Positions 21,984-31,986 of a stretch of 64,000 nucleotides of DNA are shown one piece after another (within the stretch, counting starts at the first letter, position 1; each line of letters begins with the position of its first letter). The notes under the pieces were generated by a model that was not told the origin of the DNA, searched no databases, and saw only the letters and a program-made list of their open reading frames with translations. Source of the DNA: the human T2T-CHM13v2.0 reference genome, Homo sapiens; the NCBI RefSeq assembly GCF_009914755.1, contig NC_060925.1, one strand, 5' to 3'. The position numbers and the translations under genes are program-made.

Positions 21984-22040
<57 letters not shown>
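21915..22040 (+). mobile_element. Internally deleted Alu with (CA)n tail
   Basis: First ~60 nt of Alu joined to terminal tccgtct, then (CA)n. Confidence 0.85.
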
Positions 22041-22043
<3 letters not shown>

Positions 22044-22323
22044 GGTCCTTCATTAAAGAGGAAAAAACAAAAACAATTTTCCAACAAACGTAAAACAGCA
22101 TTACATAGGTCCTGTAGTAAGAACAAATGAGAGGGAGTATAATCTGATCTATAACATGTGCCCCCCAGGACCTTATCAACTCAAACTTTAGTATTGTGTG
22201 ACCTTAAAGATTAGTCCAAATCATTCACTTTACAGATGAGAAAACTGACTCTGAAAAAATTACATAATATGCCCAAGGTCATACTCTCTGGCCGCGACAA
22301 TGACAGGACTAAAACCCAAAGTT

Positions 22324-22656
<333 letters not shown>

Positions 22657-22829
22657 TTACTTCCTTTCTTGTGATCAAAGGCTTCTAGAACTGCATAACA
22701 ACAATGGTGCTATCTGTCATATGGCAATCACTTCAGTCAACATATGCTCTGTCAGAACCTCTAGTTCCACTATATCATCTTTATACATGGCATGGGCAAT
22801 GAACTCTAGGCAATTAAATAAAAAAACCC

Positions 22830-24864
<2,035 letters not shown>

Positions 24865-25081
24865 TCATGCCCTCTCTGGTTGGAAAAAGTAAAATGCCAA
24901 CACAAGGTGAAAGCATCAAGGTCTCAATTCAGTATCTATTGAGCAAGGCATGTACTATAAAGTGGGAATACAGAGATAGTCTGATCTTATGATATTCAGT
25001 TTATTATAAATAAAGTACGCAAATAATTACAACACAATGTGTTAAGTGCAACAACAGATGTACAAAGGGCAGAAGGAGGTA

Positions 25082-25727
25082 TAGGTGACCCTTGAACAAC
25101 ATGGGTTTGAACTGCACAGGTCCATTTACAGATGGATTTTCTTCTACCTTCACTACCCCAAGACAGCAAGACCAAGCCTTCCTCTCCCTCCTCAGCCTAC
25201 TCAATGTGAAGATGACAAGGAAGACCTTTATGATGATCCTCTTCCACTTAATGGATAGTAAATATATTTTCTCCTGCTTATGATTTTTGTAACAATTTCT
25301 TTAGCTTAATTTATTATAAGAGTACAAGTATATAATACATACAACACAGAAAATATGTGGGTCTAATATAGTGGTTCACACCTGGAATTCCAACACTTTG
25401 AGAGGCTGAAGCAAGAGGATTGCTTGAGGCCAGGAGTTCGAGACCAGCCCTGGCAACATAGCAAGACCTCATCTCTACAGTGAAATTTTAAAAATTAGCT
25501 GGGCTTGGTGGCACGTACCTATAGACCCAACTACTTAGGAGGCTGAGGTGGGAGGATCACTTGAGCCTGGGAGGCTGAGACTGCTGTAAGCTGTGCTCAT
25601 GCCACTGTATACCAGTCTGGAGGGCAGAGCAAAATTCTGTCTCAAGAAAAAAAAAAAAAATGTGTTAACTGTTTATGTTATTGGTCAACAGGAGGCCATT
25701 AAGTTTTGGAGAAGTCAAAGGTTACAC
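25082..25727 (+). mobile_element. Tigger2a (MER28) DNA transposon, left part
   Basis: TA then terminal repeat taggtgacccttgaacaac; body matches Tigger2a up to gagaagtcaaaggttacac. Confidence 0.88.
25359..25660 (+). mobile_element. AluJ inside Tigger2a
   Basis: Alu dimer, A tail, TSD-like aaaatatgtg/aaaatgtgtt. Confidence 0.88.
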
Positions 25728-25944
25728 TCAGGCCTTGGAGAGAGTAAGGGCTGGGTGTATTTTCAAGTTGAGGGACCACCCTACTCCTACCCCCACATCA
25801 TGGTGTTTCCTCCAGGAGTCCAAGAGCCTTGCCATTCCTCTTGGTGCTTCCTTCAGGAGTTGAAGGGCCTGGCTATTCTTCTCACTCCTGTAGTAGCACC
25901 TATCCAGACTCTCTGCTGTTTTCTGACTTAGGGCAACTACAACC

Positions 25945-26845
25945 ATGGCTGACAAATGGTAGCTACTCACATGGGTGGAAGAAAGGGTACTACACATATT
26001 ACACATATGTAATACACATATTACACTTACACCAAGCTCCTGGCCATCTCTTGTGGCTTCAAGCAGAACCCCAAGCAGTTCATGATCACCTGGATCTTGC
26101 AGATGCACAACCAGTGGGCCACGCCCTGTCCTTGAACTCCTGGGAGCTGGTGGTGCTAATGGGCAACTTGACTCACAATGCCATCTTCAACTACCACTGC
26201 AATGCCTTGTGGGAAAGTGGCATGGCACTGCTTGCCTGGCTGCTCAGAGCCTGGTGCCAGCGCTAAAAGTCCTTCCTGCCCTTTGAGGCCACCGAGCTGC
26301 CTTTCTAGCCCTGGACCACCAAGGAGGAGGGCATCCAGCTGGTGTGCAAGACAGGCATGCTCGACTGGATCTACTGTGAGCCCCTCTCGGCCTCCTTGGA
26401 CCCCTTGTCCCCCTCACATGAGCCAGTGGCACCCAAGGACATGCCCTTCACTCAGGGCCTACAGCAGTGTCTGCTGCTGGCAACACCTGCTGCTGGCAGC
26501 ACCCTCAGAGCTACATCTCTCCCTGGTCACTCTGCTAGAGGCCATGATGGAGCTCAGACCATCTCCAACGTTGGCCTGCTCTGGCATCAGAGCCAGTCAC
26601 GCCACACCAGGCTCATGCTGGAGCCCAATCCAATGCTCAAGCACCTCACAGGCTGGCTCCTTAGCCACAGTGTGCCCAGGGAGAAGGTGGATAAAGAGCT
26701 CACCAAGGTCCTCCTGGAGCTGTACGGCAAAGAGGCCAAGTACAACCACAGCTACCTGGTCTGTGGGCTGGGAGACGAACAGTCCCTACCACCCCTCTAC
26801 TCTGACCAGGCCAGCAGGTTGGAGCCACCCATGCGTGACAACTAG
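25945..26845 (+). pseudogene. Disabled CDS, ERV-L/Fv1-like Gag (~290 codons reconstructed)
   Basis: Collinear motifs YTYTKLLAIS..FKQNP..MITWIL, LLAWLLRAWCQR*, PWTTKEEGIQLV..GMLDWI, PKDMPFTQGL..AAPSEL, GWLLSHSVPREKVDKELTKVLLELY match HERV-L Gag blocks; stops at 26264 and 26306, several frameshifts. Confidence 0.85.
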
Positions 26846-27384
26846 CCCTCAGCCTGGCTCTTGGAGAACGGGACACGGCCTGGCCCCACATTCCTGGAAG
26901 GTGGGGGAAAGGAGGAAGGCTAGATTTCAGGAAACCTGCTTTCTGCTTTGAGTTCAGGGGAGCCAGGCAAGGGAGCCTGGGACCTTGTAGGGGAGACAAA
27001 AAGCCTTGGGCAGTGCCCTCCCAGTGTATCCCTTGAGCCTCCTGTGGGCAAGCCACACCCTCATGCCATGTTCAAGGGACCCAAGAAGACAGGTGTGTCC
27101 TTGCCCTCAACCACTCACATGGGTATCACTGGTCAGAGCTGATGAGGGGAGCAAGCCACATCAGTGGCCAATTGCAATGAGTCTCTGGTGTCCCTGGAGG
27201 GAGTGAGAGCACCCAAGGACATAGTATTCAGTGTGTTACATTTTGGCCTGGGCAGCAAGGTGGGTGGGCACAGCGGTGCAGCCACCCCTCTGCCACATGG
27301 GCCACCAAAGCACTACAGGCCAAGCAGGGAGATCTCATGGTCCATAACATAAAATCATCTTGAAGTTTTTACTCTAATTTTTGT

Positions 27385-27990
27385 GTTTTTTTGGAAACAG
27401 GGTCCCAATGTCCCCCAGGCTAGAGAGCAGGGGCAAGATCATAGTTCACTGGAGCCTTGACCTCCTGGGCTCAAGCGATCCTCTCACCTCAGCCTCCCAG
27501 GCAGCTGGGACCACAGGCATACACCACAATGCCCAGCTAATTTTTTTTTTTTTTTTTTGAGACAGTTTTGCTTTTGTTGCCCAGGCTGGAGTGCAATGGC
27601 GCCATCTCCGGCTCACTGCAACCTCCGCCTCCCGGGTTCAAGCAATTCTCCTGCCTCAGCCTCCCATGTAGCTGGGATTACAGGCATGTGCCACCACACC
27701 TGGCTAATTTTGTATTTTTTTAGTAGAGACAGGGTTTCTCCATGTTGGTCAGAGTGGTCTTGAACTCCCAACCTCAGGTGACCCACCCGCCTCAGCCTCC
27801 CAAAGTGCTGGGATTACAGGCATGAGCCACCGCATCCGGCAAAAGCCCAGCTAATTTTTAAAAATACTTTGTAGAAACAGGATCTTGCTACATTGCCCAG
27901 GCTGGTCTCGTACTCCTGGACTCAAGTAATCCTCCTGCCTTAGACTCCCAAAGTGCTGGGATTACAGGCATAAACCACCACACCTAGCCT
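27385..27990 (-). mobile_element. AluJ with nested AluS (27541-27840) in the retrocopy 3'UTR
   Basis: Reverse Alu motifs; TSD-like tactctaatttt/tactctaaattt; internal repeat gcccagctaattttt. Confidence 0.88.
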
Positions 27991-28382
27991 ACTCTAAATT
28001 TTAAAAGGTCTTTTTAATGCATTATTTTTAGTTAATATTTTATTTTGTGGATACATGACACTTTAATTTTGGTGACAGTCATTTCTCTTTTTGTAATGGT
28101 TCTTCTCTTAAGGCAATGTTTTTCTTTTTGGCATTGCCTCCCACTTTGAAAGCACATTTTTGCTGTTTGATCACTGAGGAAGGAGCTGCCAGTCCCTTCT
28201 GATGAGTCTGGTTTCTCCAGGGGCATATGTGGCCTCGGGATAATCTGAGTTCTGAATCGGACTTTAGGGTATGATGGGGCCAGAATTACACATTACAGCT
28301 TGCGAGAACAGAGCCCTGGTGGTCTGGCTTCACACCTGAGGTGCTGGGCACACAGGCATCCAATAAATGGTGGGTGCATAAA

Positions 28383-28418
<36 letters not shown>

Positions 28419-28421
<3 letters not shown>

Positions 28422-28482
28422 GATTTTTGACAGCACCAGAGGGTTGGCACCCCTAACTCCCACATTGTTCAAGAGTCAACTG
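28419..28482 (+). mobile_element. Tigger2a right end
   Basis: acagatttttgac...ttgttcaagagtcaactg continues the consensus and supplies the inverted terminal repeat. Confidence 0.88.
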
Positions 28483-28553
28483 CAACTTACTATGGATCAG
28501 GGAAGGTCTCACAGAAGAGAAGATACCTAAAGGTAGATTTTAAAGAATGAATA

Positions 28554-28975
<422 letters not shown>

Positions 28976-29419
28976 CGATGGTAAAATTTAAGCTGACTCT
29001 TTTAAAATGAGTAGAATCTATGTATAAAAAAGAAAAATGACTAGATTTTCAGATATACTAAGGAAATAATAAATAGTGGGCAAAATACAACTGGAAATGC
29101 ACATACTTAGTTTGGCACAGCCAGAGTAACCCAGATTGCTGAAGCGGCACTGACTAGTTACTGGTGATGGTATGACTTTAGTAGAAACACTGTCTATAGT
29201 GTTTTAGTTGCTTCAGTTGTTTTTTGCACATATTCTTACCATAAACATCCCTCTAGGATTGTTATGCTGGATAAAACCTTTGCGCCAGGCTATCTGTTTA
29301 CCATCCTTATTTCATTTTTACAACAAATCTGAGATAAGTATTAATATCCCAATTTTAACTAGAAACTCAACTTCAGAAAGGTTCATAACAGTTCACAGTA
29401 ATACATCCCAGCATTCTGT

Positions 29420-29620
29420 TAGGTGTTACAAATTTATTATCTCATTTAACTCTTCAAACAACCCTAAGAACTAGGTATTGCTGGTACTTCTGTTTTACAG
29501 ATGAGAAAACTGAGGTTCAGGGAGGTTATGCAATTTGCTCAGGGTCACAGTGGTCTTAAGAGGCAGAACTGAGAATTAAAATTCAGGACTGCCTTATCCT
29601 AAAGCTCTCTTCCATTACAG
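29420..29620. mobile_element. MIR
   Basis: ttttacagatgagaaaactgaggttcagggagg core. Confidence 0.8.
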
Positions 29621-30584
29621 TATAATGCTTTATCTATCTTCAATCATAACTCAGTCTAATCCAATATGCTTTGATTGTTATACTCTCTGCATTTCCAGTA
29701 ACTAATATGGTAGTAGCCTCTTGCAAGGACAGGTACAATACACATTTGCTGAAGACAGTGCTTTTACGTATTAAATATAAGGGAAGGCTACAGCCAGAGA
29801 AATGCTAGCCAAGAGAAGCCCCAACACAAGGTGACTTCTCAAAGACTCTTCTTTTCAGGTTTTTCCAAAGGATATGGAAGAGTCTCCAATGCTATATCTT
29901 TTCATCGAAGAGATGGAAAGAGTACATCTGACCAAGATCTGGTTACAGCAATGCAGAGATCTTGCAGTACATACTGCAGCAAAATCAGGTGCTGACAGCT
30001 GAGAGATATCAAGTGGCATAAGGCTGTAAGAAGGGAAAAAAGCCCTAGAAATACTTAGATTCCAAAAATGTCTCTAAACGACTGCAAGAAACTGACACAC
30101 AACAAAAGAGTGGGATTCTATTAAATCCATTTAAGAGTTAAATTGGTGAAACAACTCACATAACACCAACAGATCATACTGGTAGCTCAGGTCTCCTCTC
30201 ATTTTACCTTTTTTCACATAAAAAGGTAAGCTGTCTTCCCAGTTCCTGGCAGATGTGATATCCTTCAAATATTGTTTCTCAGCTTCCCAGATGGCTAGGC
30301 TAGACTAGGACATAAGAAATATGCAGTAACATGCTCCCCACCTCCCATCTAACAGCAGGAAGAGAATAAAAAACCAAAAGAAGAAAGGAGTAGCCAGCAA
30401 TGATCTCTTCTCTCATTCCAAATACCACAGGTTAGTCCTGCTTATATAAGAGAGGTAACTATTAGAACACATCCCAAGCCTTTTTATTTTTCTCTTTCAG
30501 GTTGGGGTTAAGGAATGTTTTAAATTGTATTTCTTTTCATTTTGGTGGGGGTTTTGGGGGGATTTTTTGGTTGTTTTTTCTTTG

Positions 30585-31986
<1,402 letters not shown>

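What the first reader, a model, noticed from the sequence alone, without database searches (positions are those of the whole stretch)
25945..26845. Fossil copy of a domesticated ERV-L (Fv1-like) gag gene hidden across three reading frames
Seen: joining frames from the strong-Kozak ATG at 25945 gives MAD/NGSYSHGWKKGY..YTYTKLLAISCGFKQNPKQFMITWILQMHNQ/GHALSLNSWELVVLMGNLTHNAIFNYHCNALWESGMALLAWLLRAWCQR*KSFLPFEATELPF*PWTTKEEGIQLVCKTGMLDWIYCEP..APKDMPFTQGLQQC/LLLAAPSELHLSLVTLLEAMMEL/QTISNVGLLW..KHLTGWLLSHSVPREKVDKELTKVLLELYGKEAK..MRDN*. Established: these blocks are collinear with HERV-L/MuERV-L Gag (YT..ELL..YKQK..WEWILRVWDNGG; FAWL..W.KRW; LPW..VEEGIQRLRE.GM.EWI; GPED.P.T..AP..LK; WL..HGVP..EID.KPT.FLL.LY), the family that gave mice the Fv1 restriction factor. 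Inference: this is not raw provirus. Only part of Gag is kept, with its own ATG and stop, codons are visibly G/C-ending unlike the AT-rich surroundings, and no pol follows. The source was therefore probably an expressed host gene exapted from ERV-L gag, a candidate capsid-like or Fv1-analogous factor.
Basis: partly seen in the sequence, partly recalled or inferred. Interest (0 to 1): 0.92.

Follow-up and report, generated by a model that had tools for sequence, protein, structure and literature searches.

The report
Dead copy of an Fv1-like gene
This stretch in a LUZP1 intron is a long-dead human copy of a gene that many other placental mammals still keep intact, a gene their ancestors captured from the capsid (gag) gene of an ERV-L retrovirus, as mice later did separately to make the antiviral gene Fv1.

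Summary
The similarity is far above chance: Pfam DUF5535 at E 3e-27, an intact deer protein at E 1e-71, and hamster Fv1 at E 3e-14.

The element is a pseudogene, with two in-frame stops and at least three frameshifts. Its source is a gene of about 285 aa that is intact in 7 mammalian orders and 70-93% conserved between them. That gene is collinear with the C-terminal half of ERV-L Gag, the part that forms the C-terminal domain of Fv1. It lacks Fv1's N-terminal half and lies on a separate long branch from Fv1. Its model looks capsid-like, with foamy-virus capsid as the best match at Z 6.1.

The human genome holds four broken copies and no intact one. High GC3 (0.74-0.85, against 0.36 in HERV-L gag), the absence of pol, and shared UTR-like flanks all point to a copy of the host gene rather than raw provirus. 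Whether this copy is the ortholog or a retrocopy could not be settled. I found no paper on the family in the library, but the key survey paper is not held.

The parts
25685..25944 (+). 5' flank shared with the other three human copies. It also matches upstream sequence that dog, donkey and Myotis gene models read into N-terminal extensions, so it looks like a 5' UTR. The 5' limit is approximate.
   Evidence: blastn against the paralogs starts at 25727-25730. By eye the homology to the chr3:153.5 Mb copy runs about 40 bp further. tblastn of the N-terminal extensions: dog 62% over 29 aa at 25756-25842, donkey at 25732-25788, Myotis at 25726-25788.
25945..26845 (+). Decayed coding region of the ERV-L-gag-derived gene, from an ATG in accATGg context to a terminal TAG at 26843-26845. 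Broken by TAA 26264-26266, TAG 26306-26308 and frameshifts near 26115, 26528 and 26553, with at least one more within 25945-26013.
   Evidence: 65% identity to the intact marmot protein over 265 aligned residues. Start and stop fall where those of the intact proteins do.
26117..26491 (+). Stretch that matches the C-terminal domain of hamster Fv1 directly.
   Evidence: tblastn with Fv1 residues 287-504: 31.7% over 126 aa, E 2.8e-14.
26555..26836 (+). Pfam DUF5535 (PF17687) match, the C-terminal domain of the gene family.
   Evidence: 95.2 bits against a cut-off of 25, profile positions 11-104 of 105. It is the best of 134 matches in the whole genome.
26846..27383 (+). First part of the 3' flank, shared by all four human copies and by read-through models from whale and sheep-like records (3' UTR-like). 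GC 0.56, CpG o/e 0.07.
   Evidence: blastn 26019-27392 against the chr3:153.5 Mb copy, 70% over 1407 bp. Read-through tails of P0009 and P0034 resemble this flank (by eye). Composition.
27384..27989 (.). Later Alu-type insertions that split the 3' flank.
   Evidence: Repeat families D1 and D4-D6. The paralog homology resumes at 27990.
27990..28367 (+). Second part of the 3' flank, ending in AATAAA at 28362-28367. A (TA)n(CA)n run follows from about 28378.
   Evidence: Homology to the chr3:153.5 Mb copy at 27990-28216 and to the chr19 copy at 28098-28357. Sequence seen.
25347..25662 (+). Alu inserted just upstream of the unit. It is not part of the unit.
   Evidence: Repeat families D2, D3, D7-D9 and the A-run ending at 25661.

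Best explanation
Window 25945-26845, with about 260 bp of 5' flank and about 0.9 kb of 3' flank (25685-28367 minus the Alus), is an ancient non-coding pseudogene. It is one of four in the human genome.

Its source is a single-exon host gene of about 285 codons that an ancestor of placental mammals made from the C-terminal half of the gag gene of an ERV-L-type (class III, spuma-like) retrovirus. That gene is Pfam DUF5535, which NCBI names 'Friend virus susceptibility protein 1-like'. It is still intact and conserved in many mammals.

In the human line the copy has decayed without constraint for roughly the age of the placental orders. It makes no functional protein.

Most likely (about 55-60%) this copy is a secondary copy, either retroposed or duplicated, of the host gene, made after the gene had become GC3-rich. 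The less likely alternative is that it is the original locus.

Inferred, not shown: the live protein in other mammals is a two-domain capsid-like protein with a C-terminal PPxY motif. It would act through capsid-capsid contacts, for example by binding or poisoning the cores of ERV-L or foamy-like viruses. It would do so differently from Fv1, because it lacks Fv1's coiled-coil half.
For: **It is a pseudogene of the family.**
- DUF5535 at E 3e-27.
- 57-59% identity to intact proteins by tblastn and 65% when frameshifts are allowed for.
- Start and stop coincide with those of the intact genes.
- Two stops and at least three frameshifts.

**The source gene is real and constrained.**
- 55 database hits, of which 31 carry organism names from 7 orders. 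No named record is a primate, Mus or Rattus.
- Marmot and bear are 93% identical and marmot and deer 89%. The four human copies are 45-53% identical to each other, yet each is 55-69% identical to marmot, deer or bear.

**The origin is ERV-L gag.**
- The whole-genome search gave 1377 candidates. Of these, 137 were scored, at 28-40% identity apart from the window copy and the chr3:153.5 Mb copy.
- 29 of 29 examined loci are collinear with the protein and 25 of 29 have RT downstream.
- RT, RNase H, integrase and dUTPase are present in three sampled proviruses.

**It comes from the host-gene lineage, not generic provirus.**
- At 59 columns where HERV-L and the intact genes differ, this copy has the gene state 42 times and the HERV-L state 0 times, out of 56 covered.
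- GC3 is 0.74-0.85, against a median of 0.36 (range 0.32-0.41) in 29 HERV-L gag loci.
- None of the four copies has RT within 10 kb.
- None of the four copies matches the N-terminal 286 residues of Fv1, which 27 of 29 HERV-L loci do match.

**It looks like a secondary copy.**
- It forms a GC 0.56-0.61 island in an intron with 0.41 GC.
- All four copies share the same unit of about 2 kb with UTR-like flanks.
- The unit ends at AATAAA followed by an A/T-rich microsatellite.
- No LTR pair was found.

**The fold is capsid-like.** In an AlphaFold2 model (mean pLDDT 69), 11 of the 12 best rows of the search that does not use Foldseek are retroelement capsid domains. The top row is prototype foamy virus capsid, 8ozk_A, Z 6.1, 152 residues aligned, rmsd 4.8.
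Against: - No target-site duplication and no clean poly(A) tail were found, so retroposition is not shown.
- Synteny of the intact gene in other mammals could not be examined with these tools, so this copy might be the ortholog.
- A FastTree tree groups the four human copies (support 0.96), which would suggest duplications in the primate line. However, they share only 0-3 identical derived residues, no more than with unrelated long branches, so I read that group as long-branch attraction. The outgroup in that tree also attaches to the sequence I used as alignment reference, which is an artefact.
- Fold matches are all below Z 8, a range the tool says is common for helical models. Foldseek found nothing at E <= 0.001 in PDB or BFVD.
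- Selection on the intact genes is inferred from protein identity only; no dN/dS was computed.
- Database clusters are at 90% identity, so an intact primate member could be hidden inside a cluster that is named after another species.
Confidence: 0.85

Rival explanations
1. Unitary pseudogene. This LUZP1-intron copy is the human ortholog of the intact gene, which was lost in the primate line, and the other three human copies are its retrocopies.
For: - It is the best human match to the intact proteins by bit score (250.8 bits) and to the Pfam profile (96 bits).
- Start, stop and both flanks are collinear with the gene models of other mammals.
Against: - It is no closer to the intact genes than the chr3:153.5 Mb copy (65% against 67-69%). 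That is not what one expects of a locus that stayed under selection longer.
- It is a GC3-rich island in an AT-rich intron.
- The dog and leopard-cat records lie on contigs of 123.56 and 62.59 Mb.
Confidence: 0.2
2. Sibling provirus relic. The four human copies and the progenitor of the gene are separate insertions of one rare, gag-only (MaLR-like) offshoot of ERV-L. Only one of them was domesticated and the rest, this one included, were never genes.
For: - ERVL-MaLR elements have neither pol nor env and share homology with ERV-L gag (review PMC11359688, passage seen).
- The four copies share a fixed unit of about 2 kb.
- The chr3:153.5 Mb copy has an AATAAA just upstream of the shared 5' end, as the end of an LTR would (by eye).
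Against: - No repeated terminal segment was found in any of the four loci.
- There are only four copies in the genome.
- GC3 of 0.68-0.79 in all four copies, against 0.36 in HERV-L gag, fits a sequence that had already lived as a host gene in GC-rich DNA.
- The copies carry the gene state at 30-43 diagnostic columns and the ERV-L state at 0-2. Sibling insertions would show the same pattern, so this point does not decide.
Confidence: 0.12
3. Ordinary HERV-L or MaLR internal fragment decaying neutrally, with no host-gene stage.
For: The region is homologous to ERV-L gag.
Against: - It is 57-65% identical to the intact host genes, while those genes are only 29-34% identical to HERV-L gag.
- The DNA search finds 4 copies, not hundreds.
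- There is no pol.
- GC3 is about twice that of HERV-L gag.
Confidence: 0.02
4. The locus still does something in humans: either the 178-aa open frame 26309-26845 is translated, or the GC-rich relic has been reused as an enhancer.
For: - A 167-aa protein 99% identical to this frame, and a 117-aa one 91% identical, are in the database from unnamed assemblies.
- The table added by the hub lists RefSeq 'enhancer' features at 26061-27062.
Against: - The open frame lacks the N-terminal capsid-like domain and includes a frame-shifted stretch.
- CpG o/e is 0.14, as in methylated neutral DNA.
- The 91% relative has its own differences in frame.
- No expression or conservation data were available here.
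Confidence: 0.05

Closest known systems
Fv1 (mouse and other muroid retrovirus restriction factor, derived from ERV-L gag)
   Same: - Both derive from ERV-L-type gag with the rest of the provirus lost.
- The deer protein's residues 4-189 align to hamster Fv1 residues 287-469 at 36%, E 2e-35. That is Fv1's C-terminal domain, which binds capsid and sets specificity (PMC7313476, passages seen).
- Databases name the family 'Fv1-like'.
   Different: - It has no counterpart of Fv1's N-terminal 286 residues, the coiled-coil multimerisation half. There were 0 hits in the four human loci, against 27 of 29 HERV-L loci.
- Fv1 is 50-61% identical to HERV-L gag, while this family is about 30-37% identical to either. 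The two families sit on opposite sides of a branch of 1.49 substitutions per site.
- The family occurs in 7 orders including armadillo and elephant, whereas reviews I read date Fv1 to muroid rodents about 45 My ago (PMC8922424, passage seen).
- I therefore read it as an independent and older capture.
HERV-L / MuERV-L Gag
   Same: Collinear over about 240 residues with the C-terminal half of Gag in 29 of 29 loci examined. The DUF5535 profile also matches at least 130 dispersed ERV-L loci weakly, at 27-37 bits.
   Different: - Only 29-34% identity.
- No N-terminal half and no pol.
- GC3 of 0.74-0.85 against 0.36.
- Four copies rather than more than a thousand.
Pfam DUF5535 genes of other mammals (for example dog LOC484356 and the deer, sheep, bear and cat 'Fv1-like' genes)
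   Same: Same family, same start and stop, same flanks, and 55-69% identity depending on the copy and the species compared.
   Different: Those genes are open and conserved. The window copy has 2 stops and at least 3 frameshifts, and it has lost the PPxY motif: it reads LPPLY where 6 of 7 aligned intact proteins read PPPPPY or PPCPPY.
Other captured capsid genes (Arc, PNMA2, MOAP1, the yeast Ty1-derived Drt2, human gagV1/ERVFRD-2)
   Same: They are capsid-fold host proteins. Arc, MOAP1, PNMA2 and Drt2 are among the top 10 structural matches at Z 4.9-5.7.
   Different: They come from different donor elements: Metaviridae, Ty1 and HERV-V (the HERV-V origin from PMC12679747, passages seen). There is no detectable sequence relation: Pfam finds only DUF5535 in the intact proteins.
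ERVL-MaLR internal sequences
   Same: A gag-only derivative of ERV-L without pol or env (PMC11359688, passage seen).
   Different: MaLRs are very abundant and flanked by LTRs. Here there are four copies and no LTR pair was detected.

Membership tests
Pfam DUF5535 (PF17687) | Profile match above the curated cut-off of 25 bits | tested here: met
   95.2 bits, E 3.2e-27, profile positions 11-104 of 105 on window 26555-26836. Intact relatives score 174-186 bits.
ERV-L (class III) Gag derivative | Significant similarity to the gag of proviruses with ERV-L organisation (gag-pol with dUTPase after integrase) | tested here: met
   - The deer protein aligns to 29 of 29 loci.
- RT lies downstream in 25 of 29.
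- RVT_1, RNase_H, rve and dUTPase are present in three sampled 10-kb loci.
- That dUTPase placed after integrase marks ERV-L is recalled, not read in a paper here.
Fv1 | Homology to the capsid-binding C-terminal domain of Fv1 | tested here: met
   Window 26117-26491 against hamster Fv1 residues 287-504: 31.7% over 126 aa, E 2.8e-14. Deer protein against Fv1: 36% over 187 aa.
Fv1 | N-terminal coiled-coil half needed for multimerisation | tested here: not met
   No hit of Fv1 residues 1-286 in 10 kb around any of the four human copies. The intact proteins start at the point that aligns with Fv1 residue of about 287.
Fv1 | Orthology: the muroid locus next to Miip | tested here: not met
   - The window lies in a LUZP1 intron (hub table).
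- The family occurs in 7 orders.
- It is separated from the Fv1 clade by a branch of 1.49 substitutions per site, support 1.0.
- Fv1's position beside Miip comes from PMC7313476 (passage seen).
Fv1 | Restriction of incoming retroviruses | not testable with these tools
   This needs infection assays with an intact ortholog.
Retroviral/retroelement capsid (CA) fold | Two all-helical domains (NTD and CTD) that superpose on solved capsids | tested here: inconclusive
   - Foamy virus capsid 8ozk_A: Z 6.1, 152 residues aligned, rmsd 4.8, model residues 12-195.
- 11 of the top 12 rows are capsid-type domains.
- All Z values are below 8, and Foldseek E values are 0.9 or more against PDB and 0.13 or more against BFVD.
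- Model mean pLDDT is 69.
Processed (retroposed) pseudogene | Poly(A) tail, target-site duplication, and a parent gene elsewhere | tested here: inconclusive
   - AATAAA at 28362-28367 is followed by (TA)n(CA)n.
- No clean tail is present and no duplication was searched for systematically.
- The human genome holds no intact parent.
ERVL-MaLR internal region | High copy number and flanking LTRs | tested here: not met
   4 loci by DNA search. No upstream copy of the 3' segment in any locus.

The most novel reading that the evidence does not exclude
The DUF5535 gene is a so far undescribed capture of an ERV-L capsid gene that dates to the root of placental mammals, at least about 100 My ago. That makes it older than Fv1 and independent of it. 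It has been kept as a capsid-only protein with a PPxY motif that acts against or with ERV-L or foamy-like cores. It was lost in the line leading to humans, and apparently in mouse and rat, leaving four fossils in the human genome, one of which is this window.
Probability: 0.3. Interest if true: 0.75.

Novelty: new member of a known kind. Interest (0 to 1): 0.5.

Why it matters
Fv1 is the textbook case of a host turning a retroviral capsid gene into a weapon, and it is treated as a rodent speciality. The fossil in this window points to a second, much older capture from the same virus group. That gene is still conserved from armadillo to deer but dead in humans.

If the family is indeed unstudied, three questions become testable:
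- Are capsid-only ERV-L proteins ancient antiviral or assembly factors?
- Why did primates and murids lose the gene?
- Did Fv1 fill the gap in rodents?

For the human genome alone the result is modest: an unannotated ancient pseudogene inside a LUZP1 intron that overlaps RefSeq 'enhancer' features.

Tried and rejected
- **Sequence search against solved structures.** phmmer with the window ORF found 0 hits. The profile found only 3 chance-level hits at E of about 1.
- **Foldseek.** Nothing at E <= 0.001 against PDB or BFVD. Retroviral capsids and Gag proteins appear only among the weak rows.
- **tblastx of window 25300-28500 against three HERV-L proviruses.** Apart from Alu noise, matches lay only inside 26153-26758. 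There was no sign of pro or pol in the 3' flank, but the copy is too decayed for that to weigh much.
- **LTR search.** The 3' segments of three copies were compared with all four 10-kb loci and found no upstream partner. The general repeat scan of 22000-31000 found only Alu and simple repeats.
- **Deciding orthology from N-terminal extensions of gene models.** The window and the paralogs both match, and nothing reaches beyond about 25726, so this was undecided.
- **Trees.**
  - FastTree grouped the four human copies, but I reject that grouping as unreliable after the count. Its root is also biased towards the alignment reference.
  - A first gapped tblastn read-through ran through frameshifts and was replaced by a frameshift-aware alignment.
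- **Homodimer prediction for the intact protein.** The job could never be queued, so it gave no result.
- **Literature searches.**
  - 'DUF5535' returned 0 papers.
  - 'Fv1-like' with ERV-L and gag returned 1 paper, which is irrelevant.
  - 'Friend virus susceptibility protein' returned 10 papers, none about this family judging by titles and abstracts.
  - Three broader searches found nothing on it, nor did the gEVE search.
- **Papers not held.** Wang and Han 2020, Boso 2021, Young 2018 and Boso 2018. A paper I did read says that more than 100 retroviral gag co-options are documented, citing among others Wang and Han 2020 (PMC8321522, passage seen). This family may therefore already be listed there or in its supplements, which I could not see.
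Full report
**What is there.**
An ATG in accATGg context opens a reading that has to hop between all three forward frames. It passes two in-frame stops (TAA 26264-26266, TAG 26306-26308) and ends at TAG 26843-26845. The longest open piece is 26309-26845, 178 aa.

The region is a GC island of 0.56-0.61 in an intron that is otherwise about 0.41 GC. Within the in-frame pieces the third codon position is 0.74-0.85 GC, against 0.29-0.45 at the second position. CpG is depleted to 0.14 of expectation, as in old methylated non-functional DNA. Alus sit just upstream (25347-25662) and inside the 3' flank (27384-27989).

**It is a member of a real protein family.**
The 178-aa frame matches Pfam DUF5535 at 95 bits, E 3e-27. 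A protein database search with it returned two near-identical short ORFs (99% and 91%) from unnamed assemblies, and then intact proteins of 261-311 aa from marmot, red deer, a bat, narwhal and a whale at 40-56% identity.

Searching with the deer protein (283 aa) gave 55 hits. Of these, 31 carry organism names. They cover ruminants, hippo, camel, cetaceans, carnivores, bats, equids, rhinoceros, rodents (marmot, beaver, jerboa, mole rat, ground squirrel), armadillo and a partial elephant entry. None is a primate, Mus or Rattus. NCBI and UniProt call many of them 'Friend virus susceptibility protein 1(-like)'.

Seven intact members align almost without gaps at 78-96% identity to the deer protein. 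In the common frame used later, marmot and bear are 93% identical, marmot and deer 89%, and marmot and armadillo 71%. One caveat applies: the database is clustered at 90% identity, so a species name stands for a cluster.

**How the window copy is broken.**
I made a frameshift-aware alignment to the marmot protein, with X at stops and nothing placed at shifts. It covers residues 17-287 with 172 of 265 identical (65%). It passes the two stops and three frameshifts near 26115, 26528 and 26553, plus a few in-frame indels. The first 16 codons did not align. By eye they hold at least one more shift and an expansion of a TACACATAT-like unit. The conserved PPPPPY near the C-terminus of the intact proteins reads LPPLY here.

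**Four human copies, none intact.**
A DNA search of the whole T2T genome found only four loci:
- this window;
- chr3:153.53 Mb, 69-70% identical over 1.4 kb;
- chr19:53.89 Mb;
- chr3:53.03 Mb.

The protein search confirms that these are the only close relatives, and all four are broken. The chr3:153.5 Mb copy has 5 frameshifts and 1 stop at 67% identity to marmot. The chr19 copy has 6 frameshifts at 56%. The chr3:53 Mb copy has 10 frameshifts and 1 stop at 59%.

The copies share more than the reading frame. Homology starts about 220-260 bp before the ATG and runs about 0.9 kb past the stop, interrupted in the window by Alus. It reaches about 28357, just before an AATAAA at 28362-28367 and a (TA)n(CA)n run. 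The same flanks appear in gene models of other mammals that read through into them.

**Origin from ERV-L gag.**
The deer protein matches a dispersed human repeat. The first look gave 1377 candidates, of which 137 were scored. Apart from the window copy and the chr3:153.5 Mb copy, identities are 28-40%, with E-values down to 1e-34.
- All 29 loci fetched are collinear with residues of about 8-247.
- 25 of the 29 have reverse transcriptase at a fixed distance downstream.
- Three 10-kb samples carry RVT_1, RNase_H, integrase and dUTPase.

These are therefore ERV-L proviruses, not pol-less MaLRs. A profile search then brought in hamster Fv1 (504 aa). Deer residues 4-189 align to Fv1 residues 287-469 at 36%, and Fv1's C-terminal part hits the window itself at E 2.8e-14.

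Fv1's N-terminal 286 residues match 27 of 29 HERV-L loci but none of the four human copies. The gene therefore keeps only the C-terminal half of ERV-L Gag. According to the Fv1 literature that I read in passages (PMC7313476), this half is the capsid-binding, specificity-determining domain, while the missing half carries the coiled coil used for multimerisation.

**Not Fv1 itself.**
Fv1 is 50-61% identical to HERV-L gag. The DUF5535 genes are about 30-37% identical to both. In a tree of the shared region, Fv1 clusters with ERV-L gag ORFs of primates, lagomorphs and guinea pig, while the DUF5535 genes form their own clade across a branch of 1.49 substitutions per site with support 1.0. Given also the family's presence in Xenarthra and Afrotheria, I read it as an independent and older capture.

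**Copy of a host gene, not raw provirus.**
- HERV-L gag and the intact genes each have a firm but different residue at 59 alignment columns. At those columns the four human copies carry the gene's residue 30-43 times and the HERV-L residue 0-2 times.
- GC3 is 0.68-0.79 in all four copies, whatever the GC of their surroundings (0.44-0.56), against a median of 0.36 in 29 HERV-L gag loci.
- None of the four has RT within 10 kb.
- No pair of terminal repeats was found.

The four copies are 45-53% identical to each other, but each is 55-69% identical to the slowly evolving marmot, deer and bear proteins. They share only 0-3 derived residues pairwise, no more than with unrelated long branches such as elephant. 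That is a star pattern: each copy has decayed on its own from something close to the ancestral gene.

At strongly conserved columns the window copy has changed at 49 of 179. My rough estimate, from general neutral rates and not from a tool, puts that at about 70-100 My of unconstrained decay.

**What stays open.**
I could not see other mammals' genomes, so I cannot say which human copy, if any, is the ortholog. Three observations make me favour a secondary copy for the window at about 55-60%:
- it is a GC3-rich island in an AT-rich intron;
- the unit ends at a polyadenylation signal;
- the window copy is no better preserved than the chr3:153.5 Mb copy.

There is also a lead from memory only. 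The dog and leopard-cat records lie on contigs of 123.56 and 62.59 Mb. These sizes fit dog chr1 and cat E2, which are syntenic to human 19q, where the chr19 copy lies about 6 kb from a histidine acid phosphatase exon. Against this, the chr19 copy is the most decayed of the four.

**Structure and likely action of the live gene (inference).**
An AlphaFold2 model of the deer protein (18-row alignment, mean pLDDT 69, pTM 0.58) has 13 helices and a disordered tail from 246 that carries the PPxY motif. The search that does not use Foldseek puts prototype foamy virus capsid first (8ozk_A, Z 6.1, 152 residues aligned, rmsd 4.8, model residues 12-195). The spumavirus Gag central domain is fourth (5m1h, Z 5.3). 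The rest of the top twelve, with one exception, are Arc, MOAP1, PNMA2, copia and the Ty1-derived restriction factor Drt2.

The Z values are in a range the tool warns is common for helical proteins, and Foldseek alone finds nothing significant. I therefore call the capsid fold likely, not shown. A foamy-like best match does fit ERV-L's place among class III, spuma-like elements (PMC8922424, passage seen).

My best guess is a capsid-only protein that works through capsid-capsid contacts, with the PPxY motif linking it to NEDD4-type ligases. Without a coiled coil it cannot work exactly as Fv1 does. None of this applies to the human copy, which is dead.

**Novelty.**
The family is in Pfam and in automatic gene annotations, so it is not unknown to databases. 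The window copy is not in the RefSeq table supplied by the hub. My searches of the held library found no paper on the family. The survey most likely to list it, Wang and Han 2020, is not held. A later paper by the same authors says that more than 100 retroviral gag co-options are documented (PMC8321522). I therefore file the finding as a new member of a known kind and leave about 30% for the family being an undescribed, placental-wide, pre-Fv1 capture.

Noticed in passing
T2T chr3:153,530,197-153,531,019 (-), chr19:53,887,150-53,888,330 (-), chr3:53,031,430-53,032,261 (+); loci L002-L004, L070-L072: Three further broken copies of the same gene unit in the human genome, each with the same UTR-like flanks. 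The chr3:153.5 Mb copy has a later insertion right after its 3' flank that by recall starts like a MaLR LTR. The chr19 copy lies about 6 kb from a His_Phos_2 exon.
   Followed up: partly
proteins P0044, P0045, P0046, P0052, P0053 (Myotis, Pipistrellus and unnamed records): Vespertilionid-bat members are only 53-60% identical to the deer protein and lack about 25 residues in the C-terminal third. This could be fast evolution or decay in that bat family.
   Followed up: no
protein P0060 (listing): A 208-aa 'hypothetical protein' from a Clostridium botulinum D/C assembly matches the ERV-L gag profile at E 4.6e-66. This is most likely animal host DNA in a bacterial assembly. The sequence was not fetched.
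   Followed up: no
protein P0058 vs L069:1455-2318: A metagenome-derived protein is at zero distance from a human HERV-L gag frame in the tree, which suggests human DNA in a metagenome record.
   Followed up: no
window 26061-27062: The hub's table lists two RefSeq 'enhancer' features that cover most of the pseudogene and its 3' flank. I had no data to judge them.
   Followed up: no
window 25990-26030 and 28378-28421: Two small repeat runs: a TACACATAT-like expansion inside the first codons of the dead gene, and a (TA)n(CA)n run right after the AATAAA at the end of the unit.
   Followed up: partly
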